A stretch of 64,000 nt of DNA, taken from Eubacteriales bacterium. GTDB taxonomy: Bacteria; Bacillota; Clostridia; Oscillospirales; CAG-272. The position numbers and the translations under genes were made by a program. Below, piece by piece: positions 3,194 through 25,173 of the stretch. The stretch covers positions 41,036-105,035 of the forward strand of contig JAZQKI010000048.1 in the NCBI GenBank assembly GCA_045542075.1, read 5' to 3'. The number at the start of each line of letters is the position of its first letter. Positions within the stretch are counted from its first letter, which is position 1. A model generated the notes under the pieces. That model did not search any database, was not told the DNA's origin, and saw nothing but the letters and a program-made list of their open reading frames with translations.

Positions 3194-4573
3194 TTATTCT
3201 TTATCCCCGACCTGCTCGGGAATATACCTTTTATAATTCTGCGCACCAATCATTTGCGCGTATTCGGGAAGCACGTCAAGCGCTCTCGCCGCCACTACCT
3301 CGTATTTTGCAACCTTGCCGCCCTTTATTTTTCTGCCAAGCGGCTCAATAATGCCAAAGTTTGCATTCATAGGAACGAAATTTCCGCTCATATTTCCCGT
3401 GCTTATATATCTTGCCATCGCGCCTATCATCATAGTCGAGGGGAATATCACGCTCTCCTCGCCGAGAACTCTTCTTGCGGCGTTGACTCCAGCGACGAAT
3501 CCCGAGCCCGCCGACTCAATATAGCCCTCTACTCCTGTCATCTGTCCCGCAAAGAACACGTCGGGTCTGCTTATCATTGAGTAATCTGCCGCAAGCATAC
3601 CTGGAGAGTCAAGATAGGTGTTTCTGTGCATTATTCCGTAGCGCAGAAATTCCGCGTTTTCAAGTCCGGGAATCATACCGAAAACTCTCTTTTGCTCGGG
3701 GAAGGTCAGATGCGTCTGGAAACCCACGAGGTTATACATAGTTCCCTCGGCATTCTCTCGGCGAAGCTGAACCACGGCAAAAGCCTCCTCGCCTGTGCGC
3801 TTGTCCACAAGTCCCACGGGCTTTAACGGTCCGTATCTCAGAGTATCATATCCTCTTTTCGCCATAACCTCAACAGGCATACAGCCCTCAAAGACTTTCA
3901 ACTCCTTTTGGGACTCCCGGTCAAATTCCTTGAGCTCTGCCTCCTTTGCGGTAATAAGAGCATTATAGAACGCGTCATACTGCTCACGGTTCATAGGACA
4001 GTTGAGATAGTCAGCATCACCCTTGTCATAGCGTGAGGCGGCATAAACTATGTCCATATTGAGGCTGGACGCGTCCACTATTGGCGCGGCGGCATCAAAG
4101 AAATGAAGTCCCTTGCAGCCCAGAGTGTTCTGTATATACTCCGCCATAGGCTCACTCGTAAGAGGTCCCGTAGCGATAACAGTCACAATTCCGTCCTCAA
4201 CCCCGCTTACCTCTTGCTCTATTATTTCAATATTGGGATGATTTTTTATTTTATCCGTGATATACTGCGAAAACAAGTCTCTGTCCACCGCAAGTGCCGA
4301 GCCCGCGGGGACTCTTGTCGCGTATGCCGCCTCCATTATAAGCGAATCCATACGCAAAAGCTCCTCCTTGAGAAGTCCCACCGCATTAGTCACCCTGTCC
4401 GAGCGCAACGAATTTGAGCATACAAGCTCGGCAAAGCTCTCGGAGTGGTGAGCGGGGGTGTATTTATGCGGCTTCATTTCATAAAGCCTCACTCTGACTC
4501 CCCGCTCCGCCGCCTGCCATGCCGCCTCGCAGCCCGCAAGTCCCGCGCCGTATACGTTTATTATCTTATCCAT
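3194..4573 (-). CDS. trmFO: Folate-dependent tRNA (uracil-5-)-methyltransferase TrmFO/Gid
   Basis: [36 protein letters not shown]; downstream of topA. Confidence 0.95.
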
Positions 4574-20242: not shown

Positions 20243-21460
20243 TTGCTCGGAGGGTTTGTCGTGCATAATTTTTTCAAAAATAATTTCAAAAAAGCCGTTA
20301 TTTTAATGACGGCTCTGTTGTGTTTTTCTCTATCGTCCTGCGCGTATTCGCAGGATATTCAGCCGCTTTCTCCAACCTACTCTCTGCCCATTGTTCAGGG
20401 CGCGGACAGTCCCTCCGAGAGTCATATCTCCGCGCAGAGCGCGATAGTAATTGAAGCATCCAGCGGCGAGACTCTTTGGTCAAAAAACTGCGATAAGCCC
20501 ATGCCTATGGCGTCAACCACAAAGATCATGACCGCACTTGTCGCGCTTGAGAGGTGCGACATTCAAAAAACAGTCAAGGTCTCTCCTTTGGCCGTCGGGG
20601 TGGAGGGCTCGTCCATCTATTTGTACGCGGGCGAGGAGTTGACCATGGAAAACCTTTTGTACGCAATGCTTCTGGAGTCCGCCAACGACGCGGCGGCGGC
20701 TATTGCCATTGAGGTTGGCGGCAGCATTGAGGGCTTTGCCAAGCTTATGAATAAAAAAGCAGCCGAGCTGGGGCTTAAAAGCACCAGCTTTGAAAATCCC
20801 CACGGGCTAGACGGTGAAAACCATTACACCACCGCAAAGGAATTAGCGCTCATCACGCGCGAGGCTATGAAAAATGATGGCTTCCGCAAGATAGTTTCTA
20901 CATACAAGACCACGATTCCGCTGAATAAGGACGAGGGTACTCGCGTGCTCATCAATCACAATAAGCTGCTTAAGAGCTACGATGGCGCGATAGGCGTCAA
21001 GACAGGCTTTACCAAAAAAAGCGGCAGATGTCTTGTCAGCGCGGCGGAAATTGACGGCGTGGAGTATATCTGCGCCACGCTCAACGCCCCGTCGGATTGG
21101 AGCGACCACGAAAAGCTATTGGATTATGCGTCCTCTCTCTACGAGCGTGTCACGCTTTGCAACGTGGGGGAATTTGACTATTCCCTGCCGCTTGTAAACT
21201 GCGAGAGCCAGTCCGTCACGGTGGCTAACAAGGATAGCATTTCACTGATATTGCCCCGCGAGCGCGGGGAAATTGAGTACGTCATAGAGCTTCCTCACTT
21301 TTACTATAACGGTGTAAGTCAAGGCGAGGAGCTTGGCTCCCTGATATTTTACCTTGACGGCGAAATTATAGCAAGCACCCCCATGTGCGCGCAGAATAGC
21401 GTCGCGCAGATAAAAAACAAATCTAACTTTTTTGAACGGATAGCCTCGCTATTCGACTGA
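20243..21460 (+). CDS. D-alanyl-D-alanine carboxypeptidase (S11, DacB/DacF-like)
   Basis: ASTTK (SxxK), SAND (SxN), KTG motifs; true start probably downstream of ORF start. Confidence 0.92.
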   Translation: MLGGFVVHNFFKNNFKKAVILMTALLCFSLSSCAYSQDIQPLSPTYSLPIVQGADSPSESHISAQSAIVIEASSGETLWSKNCDKPMPMASTTKIMTALVALERCDIQKTVKVSPLAVGVEGSSIYLYAGEELTMENLLYAMLLESANDAAAAIAIEVGGSIEGFAKLMNKKAAELGLKSTSFENPHGLDGENHYTTAKELALITREAMKNDGFRKIVSTYKTTIPLNKDEGTRVLINHNKLLKSYDGAIGVKTGFTKKSGRCLVSAAEIDGVEYICATLNAPSDWSDHEKLLDYASSLYERVTLCNVGEFDYSLPLVNCESQSVTVANKDSISLILPRERGEIEYVIELPHFYYNGVSQGEELGSLIFYLDGEIIASTPMCAQNSVAQIKNKSNFFERIASLFD

Positions 21461-21468
21461 ACAGAACA

Positions 21469-22203
21469 ATGGAAAGTATAAGAATATCAAAATTTTTTAC
21501 CGACTGCGGAGTAATGTCCCGCCGCGCCGCCGAATCAGAGATCACGGCGGGCAATATCAAGGTAAACGGCGTTGTCGCAACCCTTGGGCAAAAGATAGAT
21601 CCCGAGGTCGATGTTGTTGAATACAAGGGCAAGCGCATAACTCTCCCCACAGGCGAGAAAATATGCATAATGCTCAATAAGCCGCGCGGAATAGTGACGA
21701 CCGCATCGGACGAAAAGGGCCGCGCGGACGTGACGGACTTATGCCGCGACGTCAAGGACAGCGCGGGCAAGACAATTCGTCTCTACCCCATAGGCAGACT
21801 TGATATGGACTCGGACGGACTCTTGCTTCTCACAAACGACGGCGAGCTTGCAAACAAGCTCACACACCCCCGCCACTCCATACCTAAAATATATCACGTC
21901 ACACTGAGCAGTGTTTTGTCCGAGCAAGAGGTATCAGCTCTCGGCACACCCATAGTTATCGACGGCAGAGAAACCGCTCCCGTGACCGTCAAAACCCTCT
22001 CCCAGAGCGATAAGACCACGCTTGCGGAGTTTGAGCTTTACGAGGGCAGAAACCGCCAGATTCGCAGAATGTGCGATGCTCACGGTGTAAAGATCCAGAA
22101 GCTCACGCGTGTCGCCATAGGCAACATAACCCTCGGCAAACTCCCCGTCGGCAAATGGCGCAAGCTGACTGATGATGAGGTGAAATATCTTAAAGAATGT
22201 TAA
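21469..22203 (+). CDS. rluB: rRNA pseudouridine synthase (RluB/RsuA family)
   Basis: S4 domain, LNKPRG, IGRLDMDSDGLLLLTNDG, EGRNRQIRRM. Confidence 0.88.
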   Translation: MESIRISKFFTDCGVMSRRAAESEITAGNIKVNGVVATLGQKIDPEVDVVEYKGKRITLPTGEKICIMLNKPRGIVTTASDEKGRADVTDLCRDVKDSAGKTIRLYPIGRLDMDSDGLLLLTNDGELANKLTHPRHSIPKIYHVTLSSVLSEQEVSALGTPIVIDGRETAPVTVKTLSQSDKTTLAEFELYEGRNRQIRRMCDAHGVKIQKLTRVAIGNITLGKLPVGKWRKLTDDEVKYLKEC

Positions 22204-22232
22204 AAAGCCTTCCCTATGCGGAAGGCTTTTTT
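22204..22232 (+). terminator. Intrinsic terminator after rluB
   Basis: aaagccttcc-ctatgc-ggaaggcttt followed by T-tract. Confidence 0.85.
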
Positions 22233-22261
22233 GTCTTAAAATGTCGCAATTTTATAAATTG
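22222..22261 (+). repeat. 40-bp direct repeat, left copy
   Basis: aaggcttttttgtcttaaaatgtcgcaattttataaattg, identical to 23190-23229. Confidence 0.95.
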
Positions 22262-22264
22262 AAA

Positions 22265-22286
22265 CTCCGCACCTTGCGGTGCGGAG
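22265..22286 (-). terminator. Terminator of cassette lipoprotein gene
   Basis: ctccgcacc-ttgc-ggtgcggag hairpin immediately after the stop codon. Confidence 0.7.
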
Positions 22287-22291
22287 AACAC

Positions 22292-23092
22292 TTATTTAGT
22301 TGTTTTTGTTAAAGTTAGGGATTCAACTGAATTGTTGTAAAACATGTCTCCTTCAATGCAGTCAAGAATTAAGGTGTCATTGTTAGATAAAGCGCCGGAA
22401 GCATATAAGATTAGCTTTTTTTCTTGGCTACTTATATCATAGACCTTTATTCCTGGACCATATCGCAACAATTCAATCTCTATCGGTATTGTTTTGTCAT
22501 TGGCATTCCACTCGCCAACATTGGTACTGGGAGAATACCAAAATGAGTACTCCAGTGACTGATATACTGTGGAATCATCGTAATTGATAAAATCTTTCCA
22601 TTGAGAAGAAGTGATAGAAAAAGCAATGCTTTCTTGATAGGATGTCTCAACTTTCGAGGCGTAGATAACATCGTTAGTCGATTCGCTTGTAATATGAATA
22701 ACGCCTTTTTCTCGATCGGGATTATGCAGGATAAATGATTCTGAGTTTATATTTTCAGAGATACCGAGACCCAAAAACAATTTTGCAAAATTGGAATCAT
22801 TCTCGCTACTATAGCGAACCAAACGATATGCGTTTGCATTTTTCACAGGATAGTAAATGCTACGTATTGTAACCGGTGAGCTACCAGTACTGGTCACCCA
22901 TTCGCCTATGCCGCTATCCATAAGAAAATGTATATATTCTGTGTCGGATATTGTTATTACAACATAGTTAGTATCTTTGCTCCACTGGAATACATAACCT
23001 TCTCCACGATTTATTCCTTTGCATGATGACATTGTAAATACAATGAAAAGAGATAATAAGACTAATATGAATGAACTTCTAATTTTTTTCAT
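22292..23092 (-). CDS. Hypothetical lipoprotein (266 aa), AT-rich
   Basis: GGAGG RBS, MKKIRSSFILVLLSLFIVFTMSSC signal peptide II with lipobox. Confidence 0.8.
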   Translation of the reverse strand: MKKIRSSFILVLLSLFIVFTMSSCKGINRGEGYVFQWSKDTNYVVITISDTEYIHFLMDSGIGEWVTSTGSSPVTIRSIYYPVKNANAYRLVRYSSENDSNFAKLFLGLGISENINSESFILHNPDREKGVIHITSESTNDVIYASKVETSYQESIAFSITSSQWKDFINYDDSTVYQSLEYSFWYSPSTNVGEWNANDKTIPIEIELLRYGPGIKVYDISSQEKKLILYASGALSNNDTLILDCIEGDMFYNNSVESLTLTKTTK

Positions 23093-23150
23093 AGGTCCTC
23101 CCAAATTACTTTTGCAGATTAGTCACAATGATGGCTTTACTCACAATTAA

Positions 23151-23180
23151 ATTATATCATACTACGTCATTCCCTGTCAA
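23151..23180 (-). promoter_or_regulatory. sigmaA promoter of cassette gene
   Basis: TTGACA-18bp-TATAAT with extended TG. Confidence 0.7.
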
Positions 23181-23189
23181 CAAATGAAA

Positions 23190-23229
23190 AAGGCTTTTTT
23201 GTCTTAAAATGTCGCAATTTTATAAATTG
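23190..23229 (+). repeat. 40-bp direct repeat, right copy
   Basis: Identical to 22222-22261. Confidence 0.95.
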
Positions 23230-23297
23230 GATATTTTTTACATTTTTTAGTGAAAAACTTTGTTTAATCTCACAATTGGGAATTTTTGTAAATTATA

Positions 23298-23326
23298 TTG
23301 CAAAATCTCCTAATTTATGGTAATAT
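23298..23326 (+). promoter_or_regulatory. Candidate sigmaA promoter of spo0A
   Basis: TTGCAA-17bp-TAATAT with extended TG. Confidence 0.55.
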
Positions 23327-23370
23327 ATTACTGTAAACAATAAAAACTTATTACAGGAGGATACAACAAA

Positions 23371-24153
23371 GTGGAATACACAACAAAAATACTCATAGCC
23401 GACGAAAATAATTCCCAGCGTCACATTTTGAGGGAGGCTCTCTCACACGCTGGATGCAGATACATAGACGAGGCAACAAACGGCGAGGACGCGCTCGCGC
23501 TAATCAACCGTACCCACCCCGATGTGCTGATAGCGGATATATGGCTCTCAAAGCTGGACGGACTTTCCCTCGTCCGCAGTATCAAGTCAGGCAGAGACCG
23601 TGCACCTATCATAATTATGACCTCGCCTATTTCAAACCAAAATATATTCGTTCAGTCGCTTGAGGCAGGCGCGGACGTATGCCTTATCAAGCCTGTAAAC
23701 ACCTCAACTCTCATTCAGCACATAGAAAACCTGCTCAAAAAGAGAAAAAACTCCCTCTCCCCCGAGTTTTATAACACAAAGCCCGTAGCAGACGAGACAC
23801 CCGACATTGAGGCGCAGGTCACACGCATCATCCACCAGATAGGCGTTCCCGCGCACATCAAGGGCTATCAGTACCTCCGCACGGCAATCCTCCTCACTAT
23901 AAATGACTCCGACATAATAAACTCCGTCACCAAGGTCCTCTACCCATCGGTTGCTAAGAAATATCAGACTACAACCAGCCGCGTGGAGCGTGCGATAAGA
24001 CACGCCATTGAGGTCGCGTGGGACAGAGGCGACGTGGATACGCTGAATTCCTACTTTGGATATACCATTCAGAACAACAGAGGAAAACCTACGAATAGCG
24101 AGTTTATCGCCATGATCGCGGATAATTTGAGACTTAAATACAAGTTGTACTAA
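23371..24153 (+). CDS. spo0A: Sporulation master regulator Spo0A
   Basis: Receiver domain plus [14 protein letters not shown]...[28 protein letters not shown]...[17 protein letters not shown]; GTG start with GGAGG RBS. Confidence 0.98.
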
Positions 24154-24156
24154 TAA

Positions 24157-24277
24157 GCCCTCCCCTGTGTAAGGGGAGGTGGCGCGCGAAGCGTGACGGA
24201 AGGGTTGTAAAATATGGACATTTGGCTGAAACAATCCCTCAGTCGCTCTGCGACAGCTCCCTTTACACAAAGGAGCC
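24157..24277 (+). repeat. Hairpin-rich element, family 1 (unit 1)
   Basis: ctcccctgtgtaaggggagg-tggc...ggaagggttg / caatccctcagtc...cagctccctttacacaaaggagcc with imperfect terminal inverted arms. Confidence 0.8.
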
Positions 24278-24356
24278 GACATGAACACCTGCGAACCCAA
24301 AATTTATTGCCATGATCGCGGATAATTTGAGACTTAAATACAAGTTGTACTAATAA

Positions 24357-24476
24357 GCCTCCCCTGTGTAAGGGGAGGTGGCACGCGAAACGTGACGGAA
24401 GGGTTGTAAAATATGGACATTTGGCTAAAACAATCCCTCAGTCGCTCTGCGACAGCTCCCTTTACACAAGGGAGCC
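24357..24476 (+). repeat. Hairpin-rich element, family 1 (unit 2)
   Basis: Near-identical copy of 24157-24277. Confidence 0.8.
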
Positions 24477-24580
24477 GACGTGAACACCGGCGAACCCAAA
24501 ATTTATTGCCATGATCGCGGATAATTTGAGATTGAAATATAAGCTATATTGAATAACCCCTATATCCTATGATAATATGA

Positions 24581-24622: not shown

Positions 24623-24835
24623 ATATTTACAAAGACAAAAACTATTCTTCTGTATATAATTCATCGTAGTACCAGCGTATTGGGTTTTCATAAATGTATT
24701 TCTTTATTTTATCATAATCTTCTCTACCTCGCACAACGTGATCATAAAATCCCCTTTGCCATATATTTACCCCATATTCCTTATTGCAAAACCGTTTGAG
24801 TGTAGATACAAATTGCGACACGGCTGAATGCTGCT

Positions 24836-24864
24836 TTGTAGGGGGCGACGTCCTCGACGCCCCG
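24836..24864 (+). repeat. GTAG-type REP inside RAYT CDS
   Basis: ttgtagggggcgacgtcctcgacgccccg. Confidence 0.9.
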
Positions 24865-25004
24865 TCTCCCGACACAAACAGCATGATATGAATATGGTTT
24901 GGCATAATCACGTATTGGTCAACCGTTACGTTGTTATAGAAATCACTTAATTGGTTTATGTATTTCTCAGCTACTTTACCGTATGGCAATAACTCCACAC
25001 ATTT

Positions 25005-25033
25005 CGGGGCGTCGAGGACGTCGCCCCCTACAA
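25005..25033 (-). repeat. GTAG-type REP inside RAYT CDS (inverted copy)
   Basis: Exact reverse complement of 24836-24864. Confidence 0.9.
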
Positions 25034-25173
25034 TATGTGATAAGGTTTTCCGGCGGCCTTCCGTACATATTGTTATAAAATATGCGCCCACTGTTGCGTA
25101 ATCAAAATTTTTTAATCTTGTAGGTTTTCTTTTCGGTAATTCTTTTTCTTTATCCATTTTCATCACCCGCATT

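What the first reader, a model, noticed from the sequence alone, without database searches (positions are those of the whole stretch)
22222..23229. Self-contained lipoprotein cassette flanked by a perfect 40-bp direct repeat
The 928 bp between two identical 40-mers contain a complete expression unit on the minus strand: TTGACA/TATAAT promoter, GGAGG RBS, a visibly AT-rich 266-aa lipoprotein of unknown function, and its own terminator. There is no integrase or transposase. The repeat begins in the right arm of the rluB terminator, so the host terminator is intact on the left and half-duplicated on the right. A 40-bp duplication is too long for a normal transposon TSD. Inference: this is a recombinase-free gene cassette inserted by site-specific or homology-driven recombination, excisable as a 968-bp circle.
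Basis: partly seen in the sequence, partly recalled or inferred. Interest (0 to 1): 0.68.

Follow-up and report, generated by a model that had tools for sequence, protein, structure and literature searches.

The report
Orphan immunity-like lipoprotein slot beside spo0A
A small foreign gene for a surface lipoprotein, probably an antidote to a rival bacterium's Rhs toxin, sits in an old gene-swapping slot just upstream of the sporulation master gene spo0A; the perfect 40-base repeat around it looks like a scar of host recombination, not the mark of a self-moving element.

Summary
An exact 40-mer lies at 22222-22261 and 23190-23229, and these are its only two copies in the genome. It brackets a 36% GC lipoprotein gene with a 12/12 consensus promoter, an RBS and a terminator.

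A close relative (L040) has the empty site with one 40-mer that starts in the rluB terminator. So the window carries a 968-bp insertion plus a 40-bp target duplication.

The unit is composite, not self-contained:
- **Foreign part.** 844 bp (22262-23105: RBS, gene, terminator) is 84-92% identical to DNA in unrelated gut bacteria. In three variants there it lies directly behind an Rhs toxin gene whose tip is a C39/papain-like hydrolase, which is the position of an immunity gene.
- **No toxin here.** That toxin tip was not found in this genome or in 40 relatives.
- **Resident part.** The promoter and 5'UTR (23097-23189) are shared with same-species and related alleles that carry other cargo: an RDD membrane gene, a 136-aa membrane gene, or an LRR lipoprotein plus HTH.

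The repeat's left edge is a junction that already exists in repeat-free alleles. I therefore read the repeat as the by-product of homology-assisted joining of two alleles. Similar repeat-flanked single-gene inserts occur elsewhere.

Verdict: an orphan immunity-like gene in a recombination hotspot, a new variant of a known kind. The insertion mechanism is unproven.

The parts
21469..22203 (+). rluB-type pseudouridine synthase gene, the conserved left flank of the slot
   Evidence: Pfam PseudoU_synth_2 1.5e-24 plus S4. rluB-spo0A synteny holds across the genus.
22202..22231 (.). T1, the rluB intrinsic terminator hairpin of the empty-allele type; its 3' arm and T-run form the first 10 nt of the left repeat copy
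   Evidence: Terminator scan. A homologous hairpin directly follows rluB in the empty allele L040 and in L037. The RDD allele L023 has a different hairpin, T3.
22222..22261 (+). Left copy of the 40-nt direct repeat, which is ancestral spacer sequence still attached to the rluB terminator
   Evidence: It runs on without a break from rluB and T1 in the alignment to the empty allele L040.
22262..23105 (-). Horizontally shared module of 844 bp: Shine-Dalgarno, lipoprotein CDS and terminator T2 with its T-run cut to TTT
   Evidence: 88% identical to L024-L029, 87% to L030 and 78% to L031-L034. L045 matches at 92% over 22262-23029. In these Rhs-linked and L031-type loci the homology ends exactly at 22262. 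L052-type loci match only inside the CDS. Nothing else in those contigs matches this genome.
22292..23092 (-). 266-aa lipoprotein gene, a candidate orphan immunity protein
   Evidence: ORF. No hit in Pfam, NCBIfam or PDB, and only a sub-threshold PHROG hit of unknown function. Homologs lie 40-85 nt downstream of Rhs toxin genes. The gene is a mosaic.
22265..22286 (-). T2, the cassette gene's own terminator hairpin
   Evidence: Conserved in the Rhs-linked loci.
23097..23189 (-). Resident leftward promoter P (-35 at 23180-23175, extended -10 at 23156-23151) with its 5'UTR; shared by alleles that carry unrelated cargo
   Evidence: Promoter scan 12 of 12. 91.7% identical to the same-species RDD allele L023 but only 77% to the lipoprotein allele L041. 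Homologous in G010.
23190..23229 (+). Right copy of the 40-nt repeat, the start of the spo0A upstream region; it contains a 0A-box-like TGTCGCA
   Evidence: It is the only copy in L023, L042 and L040. L040 reads TGTCGAA at this position.
23371..24153 (+). spo0A, the conserved right flank of the slot
   Evidence: Pfam Spo0A_C 7e-47 and Response_reg.

Best explanation
The rluB-spo0A spacer of this uncultured ruminant-gut Clostridia lineage is a long-lived cargo slot.

**Ancestral state.** The spacer was empty: rluB, terminator T1, one 40-mer, then the spo0A promoter region.

**Promoter platform.** In one clade a strong leftward promoter P with a 5'UTR and Shine-Dalgarno came to lie next to the 40-mer. 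The gene behind P has since been exchanged several times: an RDD membrane protein, a 136-aa membrane protein, and the lipoprotein.

**The allele in the window.** A roughly 0.84-kb module (RBS, lipoprotein, terminator) circulates among unrelated gut bacteria. Elsewhere it lies directly behind an Rhs toxin whose tip is a C39/papain-like Cys-His-Asn hydrolase. Here it sits behind P without any such toxin. Most likely it is an orphan immunity gene, expressed constitutively, whose product is tethered to the outer face of the membrane and neutralises that toxin when a competitor delivers it.

**The 40-bp repeat.** It is not a transposase footprint. Its left edge is the P|40-mer junction already present in repeat-free alleles. 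Its right edge is an illegitimate joint to the truncated terminator T2. So the allele arose when an empty-type left half (rluB-T1-40mer) was joined to a promoter-type right half (T2<-lipoprotein<-P-40mer-spo0A). The mechanism would be homology-anchored, one-sided illegitimate recombination, or equivalently a Campbell-type crossover.

**Afterwards.** The duplication keeps both the rluB terminator and the spo0A upstream element intact. The allele has been inherited and shuffled by homologous recombination in the flanks and inside the gene.

**Shown:** the insertion, the duplication, the alternative alleles, the module boundaries, horizontal sharing, Rhs linkage, the fold of the toxin tip, and absence of the toxin here.

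**Inferred:** the immunity function, the order of events, and the recombination mechanism.
For: **Repeat and expression signals**
- The repeat is exact and has only two copies in the genome.
- Promoter, RBS and terminators are present as described.

**Empty site**
- L040 aligns to window 21000-22261 and to 23189-24144, with a 41-bp overlap on a single 40-mer that begins in the terminator arm.
- More distant genus members also have empty spacers of 100-170 bp.

**Alternative cargo in the same slot**
- L023 is the same species (98.6% identity in the flanks, identical Spo0A). It carries another terminator, an RDD gene, the same P and one 40-mer. L042 has the same layout.
- G010 carries an LRR lipoprotein, an HTH gene and a 136-aa TM gene behind P.
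- L041 carries an LRR gene and an HTH gene upstream of the same T1-40mer-T2-lipoprotein-P-40mer block.
- The RDD protein and the 136-aa protein are unrelated to each other.

**P follows the host lineage, not the cargo**
- G000 P against L023 P is 91.7%. L041 P against L042 P is 85.6%. G000 P against L041 P is 77%.

**Module boundaries and horizontal transfer**
- Homology to the Rhs-linked and L031-type loci ends at 22262.
- Those contigs share nothing else with this genome at nucleotide level.
- An identical 263-aa homolog occurs in at least three chromosomal contexts.
- The ortholog is absent from 24 other species of the genus.

**Immunity-gene position**
- The homolog lies 40-85 nt after the stop of 2279-2404-aa RHS/YD proteins in three variants, whose toxin tips are 71-77% identical.
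- In L024 a paralogous lipoprotein follows it.

**Toxin tip**
- C77, N84, H167 and N182 are invariant in an alignment of 19 tip sequences; the library search found 261 homologs.
- The AF2 model has pLDDT 90. Foldseek matches the ComA/PCAT C39 peptidase at probability 1.0, with weaker matches to staphopain, PeiR and a CdiA-CT.
- The class Tox-PL-C39 on RHS carriers is described in PMC3482391.
- The tip was not found in this genome or in 40 relatives.

**Age and mosaicism**
- G000 and L041 share the junctions, the signal-peptide region and the 3' 400 nt (93-97%). The middle is only 65-75% identical. There G000 matches the Rhs-linked alleles and L041 matches another pool.

**The repeat type is not unique**
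- C46 has a 33-nt repeat (the whole terminator hairpin) around a one-gene unit with its own promoter. The site is empty in G006 and occupied in G046.
- L054 and L061 have a 40-nt repeat around a 403-bp one-gene insert. L052 is the empty site.
- Repeat lengths and sequences differ, and no conserved element ends exist.
Against: **Function**
- Immunity rests on gene position only. The lipoprotein has no detectable family or fold match, and its model is only moderate (pLDDT 75).
- The Rhs loci lie next to prophage-like genes (S24 repressor, holin). A phage exclusion or other surface role is therefore possible.
- Only three toxin-lipoprotein pairs were seen. The toxin tip is rare: 1 distant hit among 400 other genomes of the class.

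**Mechanism**
- No intermediate allele (lipoprotein behind P without the left repeat) was found.
- The two repeat copies are identical within each genome yet differ between genomes, both here (G000 against L041) and at C46 (G000 against G046). This needs gene conversion or homogenisation through the flanks. It would also fit repeated excision and re-integration, or independent target-duplicating insertions.
- 33-42-bp repeats recur, which hints at something more specific than random illegitimate joints.
Confidence: 0.55

Rival explanations
1. The 968-bp unit is a self-contained mobile cassette. The 40-mers are attL and attR. A recombinase encoded elsewhere integrates it and excises it as a circle.
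For: - Perfect direct repeats, an empty site with one copy, and no recombinase inside.
- The repeat copies co-vary within genomes, as repeated excision and re-integration would give.
Against: - The promoter part of the 'cassette' is resident DNA shared with other cargo alleles, and it tracks the host lineage.
- Against the same-species RDD allele, homology breaks at about 22206-22209 and 23097, not at the repeat edges.
- In other genomes the shared module never carries the 40-mer.
- The three repeat-flanked cases have unrelated repeat sequences and no common ends.
- The genome has only three tyrosine recombinases, none adjacent.
- The cassette is as diverged from L041 as the flanks are.
Confidence: 0.12
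2. A dedicated but unknown insertion mechanism that targets terminators. It places single-gene expression units beside intrinsic terminators through staggered cuts 30-60 bp apart, so the repeat is a true target-site duplication.
For: - Three independent cases have 33-40-bp duplications of sequence that includes or adjoins a terminator hairpin, each with an empty site.
- Earlier scan notes, which are unchecked leads, mention a 42-bp terminator repeat around a 560-bp insert in another genome.
Against: - No conserved termini, inverted repeats or associated enzyme were found.
- Repeat lengths vary (30, 33, 40, 62).
- Here the left edge of the repeat coincides with an older junction present in repeat-free alleles. 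A fresh staggered cut would not explain that coincidence.
Confidence: 0.1
3. Alternative function. The lipoprotein is not an immunity protein but a phage-derived superinfection-exclusion protein or some other surface or adhesion protein. Its position behind Rhs genes would then reflect shared carriage at a prophage end.
For: - The Rhs-linked copies lie beside S24 repressor, HTH and holin genes.
- The slot's other cargos are surface or membrane proteins: LRR lipoprotein, RDD, TM proteins.
- No immunity family matches.
Against: - Adjacency to the toxin tip holds in three variants whose downstream genes differ.
- The gene also travels alone, without phage genes, in at least three chromosomal contexts.
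- No relative was found in IMG/VR viral contigs, and only a sub-threshold PHROG hit of unknown function turned up.
- The central segment is mosaic, as expected for a specificity region in an arms race.
Confidence: 0.25
4. Assembly artefact. The repeat and insert arise from a mis-join of strain variants in a metagenome assembly.
For: The genome is a 48-contig, MAG-like assembly. Strains with other alleles exist.
Against: - The same T1-40mer-T2-lipoprotein-P-40mer architecture, with the same junctions, is present in an independent assembly (L041, GCA_054291665.1) at about 87% identity, with its own diverged repeat copies.
- Analogous repeat-flanked inserts appear in assemblies made with different assemblers.
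Confidence: 0.02

Closest known systems
Orphan immunity genes of polymorphic toxin systems, including the acquired interbacterial defence (AID) clusters of gut Bacteroidales (bioRxiv 10.1101/471110; 10.1101/2025.05.03.651265; Rhs orphan immunity in Serratia, PMC10539506)
   Same: - A gene that elsewhere directly follows a polymorphic toxin tip is kept here without the toxin.
- It is horizontally shared between unrelated gut bacteria.
- It is mosaic and fast-evolving.
- It is expressed from a strong promoter.
   Different: - It is a single gene, not an array.
- The host is a Gram-positive-type Clostridia lineage, and the putative toxin is an Rhs protein with a C39-like tip rather than a T6SS effector.
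- The product is a lipoprotein of an undescribed family.
- No recombinase or repeat array is present, as there is in rAID.
- Protection is untested.
Minimal mobile elements of Neisseria and MGE-free integration hotspots, that is, gene-turnover slots between conserved core genes exchanged by homologous recombination (concept recalled from my own knowledge; PMC3898611 reviews Neisseria genome flexibility but I did not read it)
   Same: - Two conserved flanking genes (rluB, spo0A).
- At least five alternative contents plus an empty state in close relatives.
- No mobility genes.
- The flanks are homogenised within a species, right up to the cargo.
   Different: - This slot contains a resident promoter and RBS platform behind which unrelated genes are swapped almost at the start codon.
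- One allele carries a 40-bp duplication of the target.
Homology-facilitated illegitimate recombination (HFIR; de Vries and Wackernagel 2002, recalled from my own knowledge) and Campbell-type single crossover
   Same: One end of the new DNA joins through homology (40-mer and spo0A side). The other end joins at a non-homologous point (terminator T-run). No element-encoded enzyme is needed.
   Different: - As I recall them, HFIR products usually delete recipient DNA. Here 40 bp are duplicated.
- The event itself was not observed.
CIMEs (cis-mobilisable elements: att-flanked remnants of integrative elements without an integrase)
   Same: Direct repeats of the target flank a short cargo that has no recombinase.
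   Different: - No related integrase-bearing element was found at this site in any of the alleles examined.
- The repeats are plain target sequence of variable length and sequence at different loci.
Tox-PL-C39 polymorphic toxin domains on RHS carriers (Zhang et al. 2012, PMC3482391)
   Same: The tip of the Rhs proteins linked to the lipoprotein homologs has a papain/C39-like fold and a Cys-His-Asn set. It sits after the RHS core, as that class does.
   Different: The 2012 toxin table lists no immunity family for this class; elsewhere the paper links a C39-like peptidase toxin to Imm-SuFu. The lipoprotein would be a further candidate partner. Membership of the tip in that exact family was inferred from fold and motif, not from their profile.

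Membership tests
Transposon / insertion sequence with target-site duplication | Element-encoded transposase | tested here: not met
   The only ORF of 60 aa or more between the repeats, apart from one overlapping frame, is the lipoprotein. It has no Pfam hit.
Transposon / insertion sequence with target-site duplication | Terminal inverted repeats or conserved element ends | tested here: not met
   No inverted repeat pairs the two ends. The ends of the three repeat-flanked inserts are unrelated.
Transposon / insertion sequence with target-site duplication | Short duplication of fixed length (2-15 bp) | tested here: not met
   The duplication is 40 bp here, and 33, 40 and other lengths at the other loci.
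Integron gene cassette | Promoterless ORF followed by an attC imperfect palindrome, in an array next to intI/attI | tested here: not met
   The unit has a 12/12 promoter and a plain terminator hairpin. The three tyrosine recombinases of the genome are not adjacent. No cassette array is present.
CIME / integrase-less remnant of an integrative element | Direct repeats that are att sites | tested here: inconclusive
   Direct repeats are present. However, the left edge coincides with an older junction found in repeat-free alleles.
CIME / integrase-less remnant of an integrative element | A related integrase-bearing element at the same site in relatives | tested here: not met
   None of the alleles seen (L023, L037, L039, L040, L041, L042, G010 and the distant empty sites) carries an integrase.
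Recombination hotspot / minimal mobile element | Conserved flanking genes with different whole-gene contents in different strains, plus an empty state | tested here: met
Recombination hotspot / minimal mobile element | Exchange by homologous recombination in the flanks | tested here: inconclusive
   The flanks and P follow the species rather than the cargo, and the gene is mosaic. Both are consistent with this, but transfer was not observed.
Polymorphic-toxin immunity gene (orphan) | Homologs lie immediately downstream of a toxin C-terminal domain | tested here: met
   Three Rhs variants: L024-L029, L030 and L045.
Polymorphic-toxin immunity gene (orphan) | The cognate toxin is absent from the host genome | tested here: met
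   The toxin tip gave no hit in G000 or in 40 relatives. The assembly is 96.7% complete, so a small gap remains.
Polymorphic-toxin immunity gene (orphan) | Binds and neutralises the toxin | not testable with these tools
   Needs co-expression, pull-down or competition assays.
Acquired interbacterial defence cluster (AID / rAID) | An array of several immunity genes, in rAID with a tyrosine recombinase and conserved intergenic repeats | tested here: not met
   There is one gene and no recombinase. The repeat is target DNA.

The most novel reading that the evidence does not exclude
Gut Clostridia may have a so far undescribed way of installing single-gene expression units next to intrinsic terminators, mostly toxin-immunity and surface genes. 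It would duplicate 30-60 bp of the target. The two copies would be kept identical by cycles of precise excision and re-integration, or by directed conversion. This would be a recombinase-free, or trans-acting and structure-guided, cassette system. The promoter platform beside spo0A would act as a fixed docking and expression site for immunity genes.
Probability: 0.12. Interest if true: 0.85.

Novelty: new variant of a known kind. Interest (0 to 1): 0.5.

Why it matters
- **A testable toxin-antidote pair.** If the lipoprotein is an immunity protein, it is a candidate partner for the C39-like class of Rhs toxin tips. It would also show that uncultured Gram-positive-type gut bacteria collect orphan immunity genes as Bacteroidales do. 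Both points can be tested by co-expression.
- **A promoter platform.** The slot has a resident promoter and RBS behind which unrelated genes are exchanged almost at the start codon, right against the control region of the sporulation master regulator.
- **A clean repeat system.** Target repeats of 33-40 bp recur around one-gene inserts and co-vary within each genome. This gives a tidy system for asking how bacteria add single genes without mobile-element enzymes.

Tried and rejected
- **40-mer core in public collections.** The JGI metagenome scan gave one unrelated chance hit. The GTDB genome scan returned only G010.
- **Exact-protein look-ups.** The lipoprotein and RluB were not on record, so I went through Spo0A variants instead.
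- **Lipoprotein function.** Pfam, PHROGs, NCBIfam, a PDB profile search and Foldseek against PDB gave nothing usable.
- **Toxin tip by sequence.** Pfam and PDB sequence searches gave nothing. Only the fold search was informative.
- **Viral contigs.** No relative of the lipoprotein or of the toxin tip was found.
- **Class-wide toxin search.** It found one distant case among 400 other genomes, too few to test toxin-lipoprotein linkage.
- **Rejected: a fixed 40-bp stagger.** Repeat lengths vary.
- **Rejected: RAYT or IS200-type action.** That chemistry leaves no duplication and needs REP or hairpin ends, which are absent here.
- **Rejected: one ancestral cargo behind P.** The RDD protein and G010's membrane protein are unrelated.
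- **Set aside: the C6 barnase/barstar-like pair.** Its flanking repeats continue into two paralogous rubredoxin-like gene ends, so it is not a clean example of the same phenomenon.
Full report
**1. Observation**

The window has an exact 40-nt direct repeat at 22222-22261 and 23190-23229, 968 bp apart. These are its only two copies in the 1.64-Mb, 48-contig genome, even with three mismatches allowed. By my own arithmetic, a chance exact 40-mer pair in 64 kb is expected about 1e-15 times.

The 928 bp between the copies are 36% GC, against about 50% in the neighbouring genes. They hold one minus-strand gene for a 266-aa protein with a signal peptide and lipobox. The gene has a perfect TTGACA-18-TATAAT promoter with a TG extension, a GGGAGG Shine-Dalgarno and its own terminator.

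The repeat starts in the 3' arm of the rluB terminator. The flanking genes are an RluB-type pseudouridine synthase and Spo0A.

**2. It is an insertion, and the site is a slot**

rluB-spo0A synteny holds across the genus. Most species have a spacer of only 100-170 bp.

A closer relative, L040 (GCA_054288065.1, 87-91% identical), has rluB, a homologous terminator hairpin, one 40-mer and then the spo0A upstream region. The window aligns to it as 21000-22261 and 23189-24144, and the two alignments overlap by 41 bp on the single copy.

The same spacer holds other contents in relatives:

| Allele | Relation to the window | Content of the spacer |
|---|---|---|
| L040 | 87-91% identical | Empty: T1, one 40-mer |
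| L023 | Same species; flanks 98.6%, identical Spo0A | Terminator T3, 129-aa RDD membrane gene, P, one 40-mer |
| L042 | 87-90% identical | Same layout as L023 |
| G010 | MAG from roe-deer cecum, about 80% identical | LRR lipoprotein, HTH gene, unrelated 136-aa membrane gene, P |
| L041 | 87-90% identical | LRR and HTH pair inserted upstream of the very block seen in the window |
| L037, L039 | 90-92% identical | About 150-bp MITE-like element between two diverged copies of the terminator |

**3. The 'cassette' is composite**

Against the same-species RDD allele, blast homology runs to 22209 (by eye it ends near 22206, just after the rluB stop). It resumes at 23097, in the 5'UTR of the lipoprotein gene. 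Neither breakpoint is at a repeat edge.

The stretch 23097-23189 holds promoter P, the 5'UTR and the Shine-Dalgarno region. It is shared by alleles with three unrelated cargo genes. It also tracks the host lineage rather than the cargo:

| Comparison of P | Cargo in the two alleles | Identity |
|---|---|---|
| G000 vs L023 | different | 91.7% |
| L041 vs L042 | different | 85.6% |
| G000 vs L041 | same | 77% |

So P is a resident platform behind which genes are exchanged almost at the start codon.

The foreign part is 22262-23105 (RBS, gene, terminator T2). It matches the following contigs:

| Contigs | Identity | Stretch of the window matched |
|---|---|---|
| L045 | 92% | 22262-23029 |
| L024-L029 | 88% | 22262-23105 |
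| L030 | 87% | 22262-23101 |
| L031-L034 | 78% | 22262-23100 |
| L052-type | 84% | CDS only |

In the Rhs-linked and L031-type loci the homology stops exactly at 22262. That is the base after the left repeat, inside the T-run of T2. Those contigs have 37-53% GC and share nothing else with this genome at nucleotide level.

One identical 263-aa homolog lies in at least three different chromosomal neighbourhoods. The ortholog is missing from the 24 other species of the genus that were sampled. The gene module is therefore shared horizontally among unrelated gut bacteria.

**4. What the gene probably does**

In three sequence variants (L024-L029, L030, L045) the homolog starts 40-85 nt after the stop codon of a 2279-2404-aa RHS/YD-shell protein. 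In L024 a paralogous lipoprotein follows it.

The last 232 residues of these Rhs proteins lie beyond the ...YYDPxTGRFLNSD core end. They are 71-77% identical to one another.
- The domain has 261 homologs in the 1.84-billion-protein library, often at the C-termini of RHS-repeat proteins.
- Cys77, Asn84, His167 and Asn182 are invariant in an alignment of 19 of these tip sequences.
- An AlphaFold model has mean pLDDT 90. It matches the C39 peptidase domains of ComA and PCAT1 at Foldseek probability 1.0.
- More weakly it matches staphopain, the pseudomurein endoisopeptidase PeiR and a CdiA-CT.

Papain-like 'Tox-PL-C39' tips on RHS carriers are a described class of polymorphic toxin (PMC3482391).

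The tip gave no hit in this genome or in 40 relatives. A gene that rides directly behind a toxin tip elsewhere and stands alone here is, by position, an orphan immunity gene. A lipid-anchored product outside the membrane would fit a toxin that acts on the envelope.

The gene is a mosaic:
- G000 and L041 share the signal-peptide region, the last 400 nt, T2 and the junction at 93-97%.
- The middle is only 65-75% identical between them.
- In the middle, G000 matches the Rhs-linked alleles (89-95%) and L041 matches the L052 pool (96%).

This is what a specificity segment in an arms race would look like.

The weak points are real:
- The lipoprotein has no family, no PDB relative and only a moderate model (pLDDT 75, an all-beta protein).
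- The Rhs loci lie beside prophage-like genes, so a phage-exclusion or other surface role cannot be excluded.
- No relative was found in viral contigs.

I put immunity at about 0.6.

**5. How the repeat arose**

Four observations bear on this.

(a) The left edge of the repeat is exactly the point where P-bearing alleles and empty alleles begin to agree (GAAA|AAGGC against GCGG|AAGGC). That P|40-mer junction exists in alleles without any duplication: L023, L042 and G010. The right edge is a join between the end of the 40-mer and a truncated terminator T-run, with no evident homology. The allele is thus an empty-type left half joined to a promoter-type right half. One side joined through homology and the other illegitimately. 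HFIR-like recombination or a Campbell-type crossover would give this. A fresh staggered cut would not explain the coincidence with the older junction.

(b) The structure is old and arose once. L041 has the same junctions, and its cassette is 85% identical against 88-90% for the flanks.

(c) The two copies co-vary within genomes. Both G000 copies read GTCTT...CGCA. Both L041 copies read ATCGC...CGG(G/A), the variant of the L041/L042 lineage. This needs conversion between the copies, homogenisation through recombination with empty-type and other alleles of the same species, or cycles of excision and re-integration.

(d) The phenomenon is not unique.
- On contig C46 a 176-aa membrane gene with its own TGnTATAAT promoter lies between two copies of a 33-nt terminator hairpin. 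G006 has the empty site with one hairpin, and G046 has the insert. The hairpin loop variant is the same in both copies within each genome.
- In L054, L055, L057 and L061 a 403-bp RBS-plus-ORF insert is flanked by another 40-nt repeat. The two copies are 95% identical where both are complete. L052 is the empty site.

Repeat sequences, repeat lengths and insert ends are unrelated, and only three tyrosine recombinases exist in the genome, none adjacent. This argues against a transposase or a sequence-specific integrase. It leaves open a structure-guided or otherwise unknown process, which I put at 0.1-0.12.

The duplication has a plausible selective logic. It leaves a complete rluB terminator on the left. 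On the right it leaves the spo0A upstream element, which includes a 0A-box-like TGTCGCA that reads TGTCGAA in L040. This is inference.

**6. Comparison with known systems**

- **Function:** closest to orphan immunity genes and the acquired interbacterial defence genes of gut Bacteroidales. It differs in being a single gene, in a Clostridia lineage, of an undescribed lipoprotein family, with no recombinase array.
- **Locus:** behaves like a minimal mobile element or MGE-free hotspot, with the added feature of a resident promoter platform.
- **Not a member of:** transposons, integron cassettes, or (on present evidence) CIMEs. The membership table gives the tests.
- **Earlier scan notes:** they describe recombinase-free 'replacement-tail' inserts on the other side of spo0A, and cassettes with duplicated terminators or gene ends in other genomes. 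I treat these as leads that fit the picture, not as evidence.

**7. Verdict**

- Observation confirmed.
- Interpretation partly supported. It is a real, recombinase-free insertion with an empty allele and alternative cargo.
- Best reading: an orphan immunity-like lipoprotein gene captured behind a resident promoter in a recombination slot beside spo0A, with the 40-bp repeat as a recombination scar.
- Scores: confidence 0.55 for the whole statement, higher for the structural parts; interest 0.5; novelty: a new variant of a known kind.

Noticed in passing
window 24083-24563: There are three copies, about 200 bp apart, of the last ~80 bp of spo0A plus a hairpin-rich segment. L023 has one unit fewer. 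L038 and L040 have none, and there spo0A is followed directly by the HAD gene. Earlier agents have already studied this (e1-5262044/45).
   Followed up: partly
window 24642-25172 (arms 24836-24864 and 25005-25033): A RAYT / IS200-like Y1 gene carries a perfect 29-nt inverted repeat pair inside its reading frame. The whole gene is absent in L038 and L040.
   Followed up: no
L037:1312-1466 and L039:561-715: A MITE-like element of about 150 bp is inserted after the rluB terminator, between two diverged copies (about 74% identical) of that terminator. Partial copies of the element occur on at least six contigs of the window's genome.
   Followed up: partly
G000:C46:2866-3540 (L062:1367-2041): A second repeat-flanked one-gene unit: a 176-aa membrane protein with its own TGnTATAAT promoter between two copies of a 33-nt terminator hairpin. 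The site is empty in G006:C68 and occupied in G046. The loop variant is the same in both copies within each genome.
   Followed up: yes
L054:29-511, L061:108-590, L055:1-468: In an unrelated organism a 403-bp insert (RBS plus a 124-140-aa membrane ORF) lies between two copies of a different 40-nt sequence, immediately upstream of the lipoprotein homolog. L052 shows the empty site.
   Followed up: yes
G000:C6:4995-6300: A barnase-like / barstar-like gene pair (38.5% GC) lies between two copies of a terminator and the 3' ends of two paralogous rubredoxin-like genes.
   Followed up: partly
G000:C17:55120-57075 (L063): tRNA-Gln is followed by repeated fragments that resemble tRNA 3' ends (a 62-nt and a 30-nt direct repeat). 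These bracket a 77-aa ORF and a 239-aa lipoprotein gene. No integrase gene showed up in a quick ORF scan of the few hundred bases around them.
   Followed up: partly
window 23205-23220 (and 22237-22252): The 40-mer contains TAAAATGTCGCAATTTTA, a small palindrome around a 0A-box-like TGTCGCA (TGTCGAA in L040). More distant relatives have TTCGACA boxes in the same spacer. The duplication therefore also duplicates a possible Spo0A binding site. One copy lies about 35 nt upstream of promoter P.
   Followed up: no
L024:2762-3457, L030:2763-3455, L045:300-995: The Rhs C-terminal domain has an invariant Cys/Asn/His/Asn set, a C39-like fold and 261 library homologs. No Pfam, NCBIfam or PHROG model covers it.
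   Followed up: yes
L052:2136-2306 and 3434-3663; L053:1632-1836: GC-rich REP-like hairpin clusters bound the ~1.34-kb unit that carries the identical lipoprotein homolog in different chromosomal contexts.
   Followed up: no
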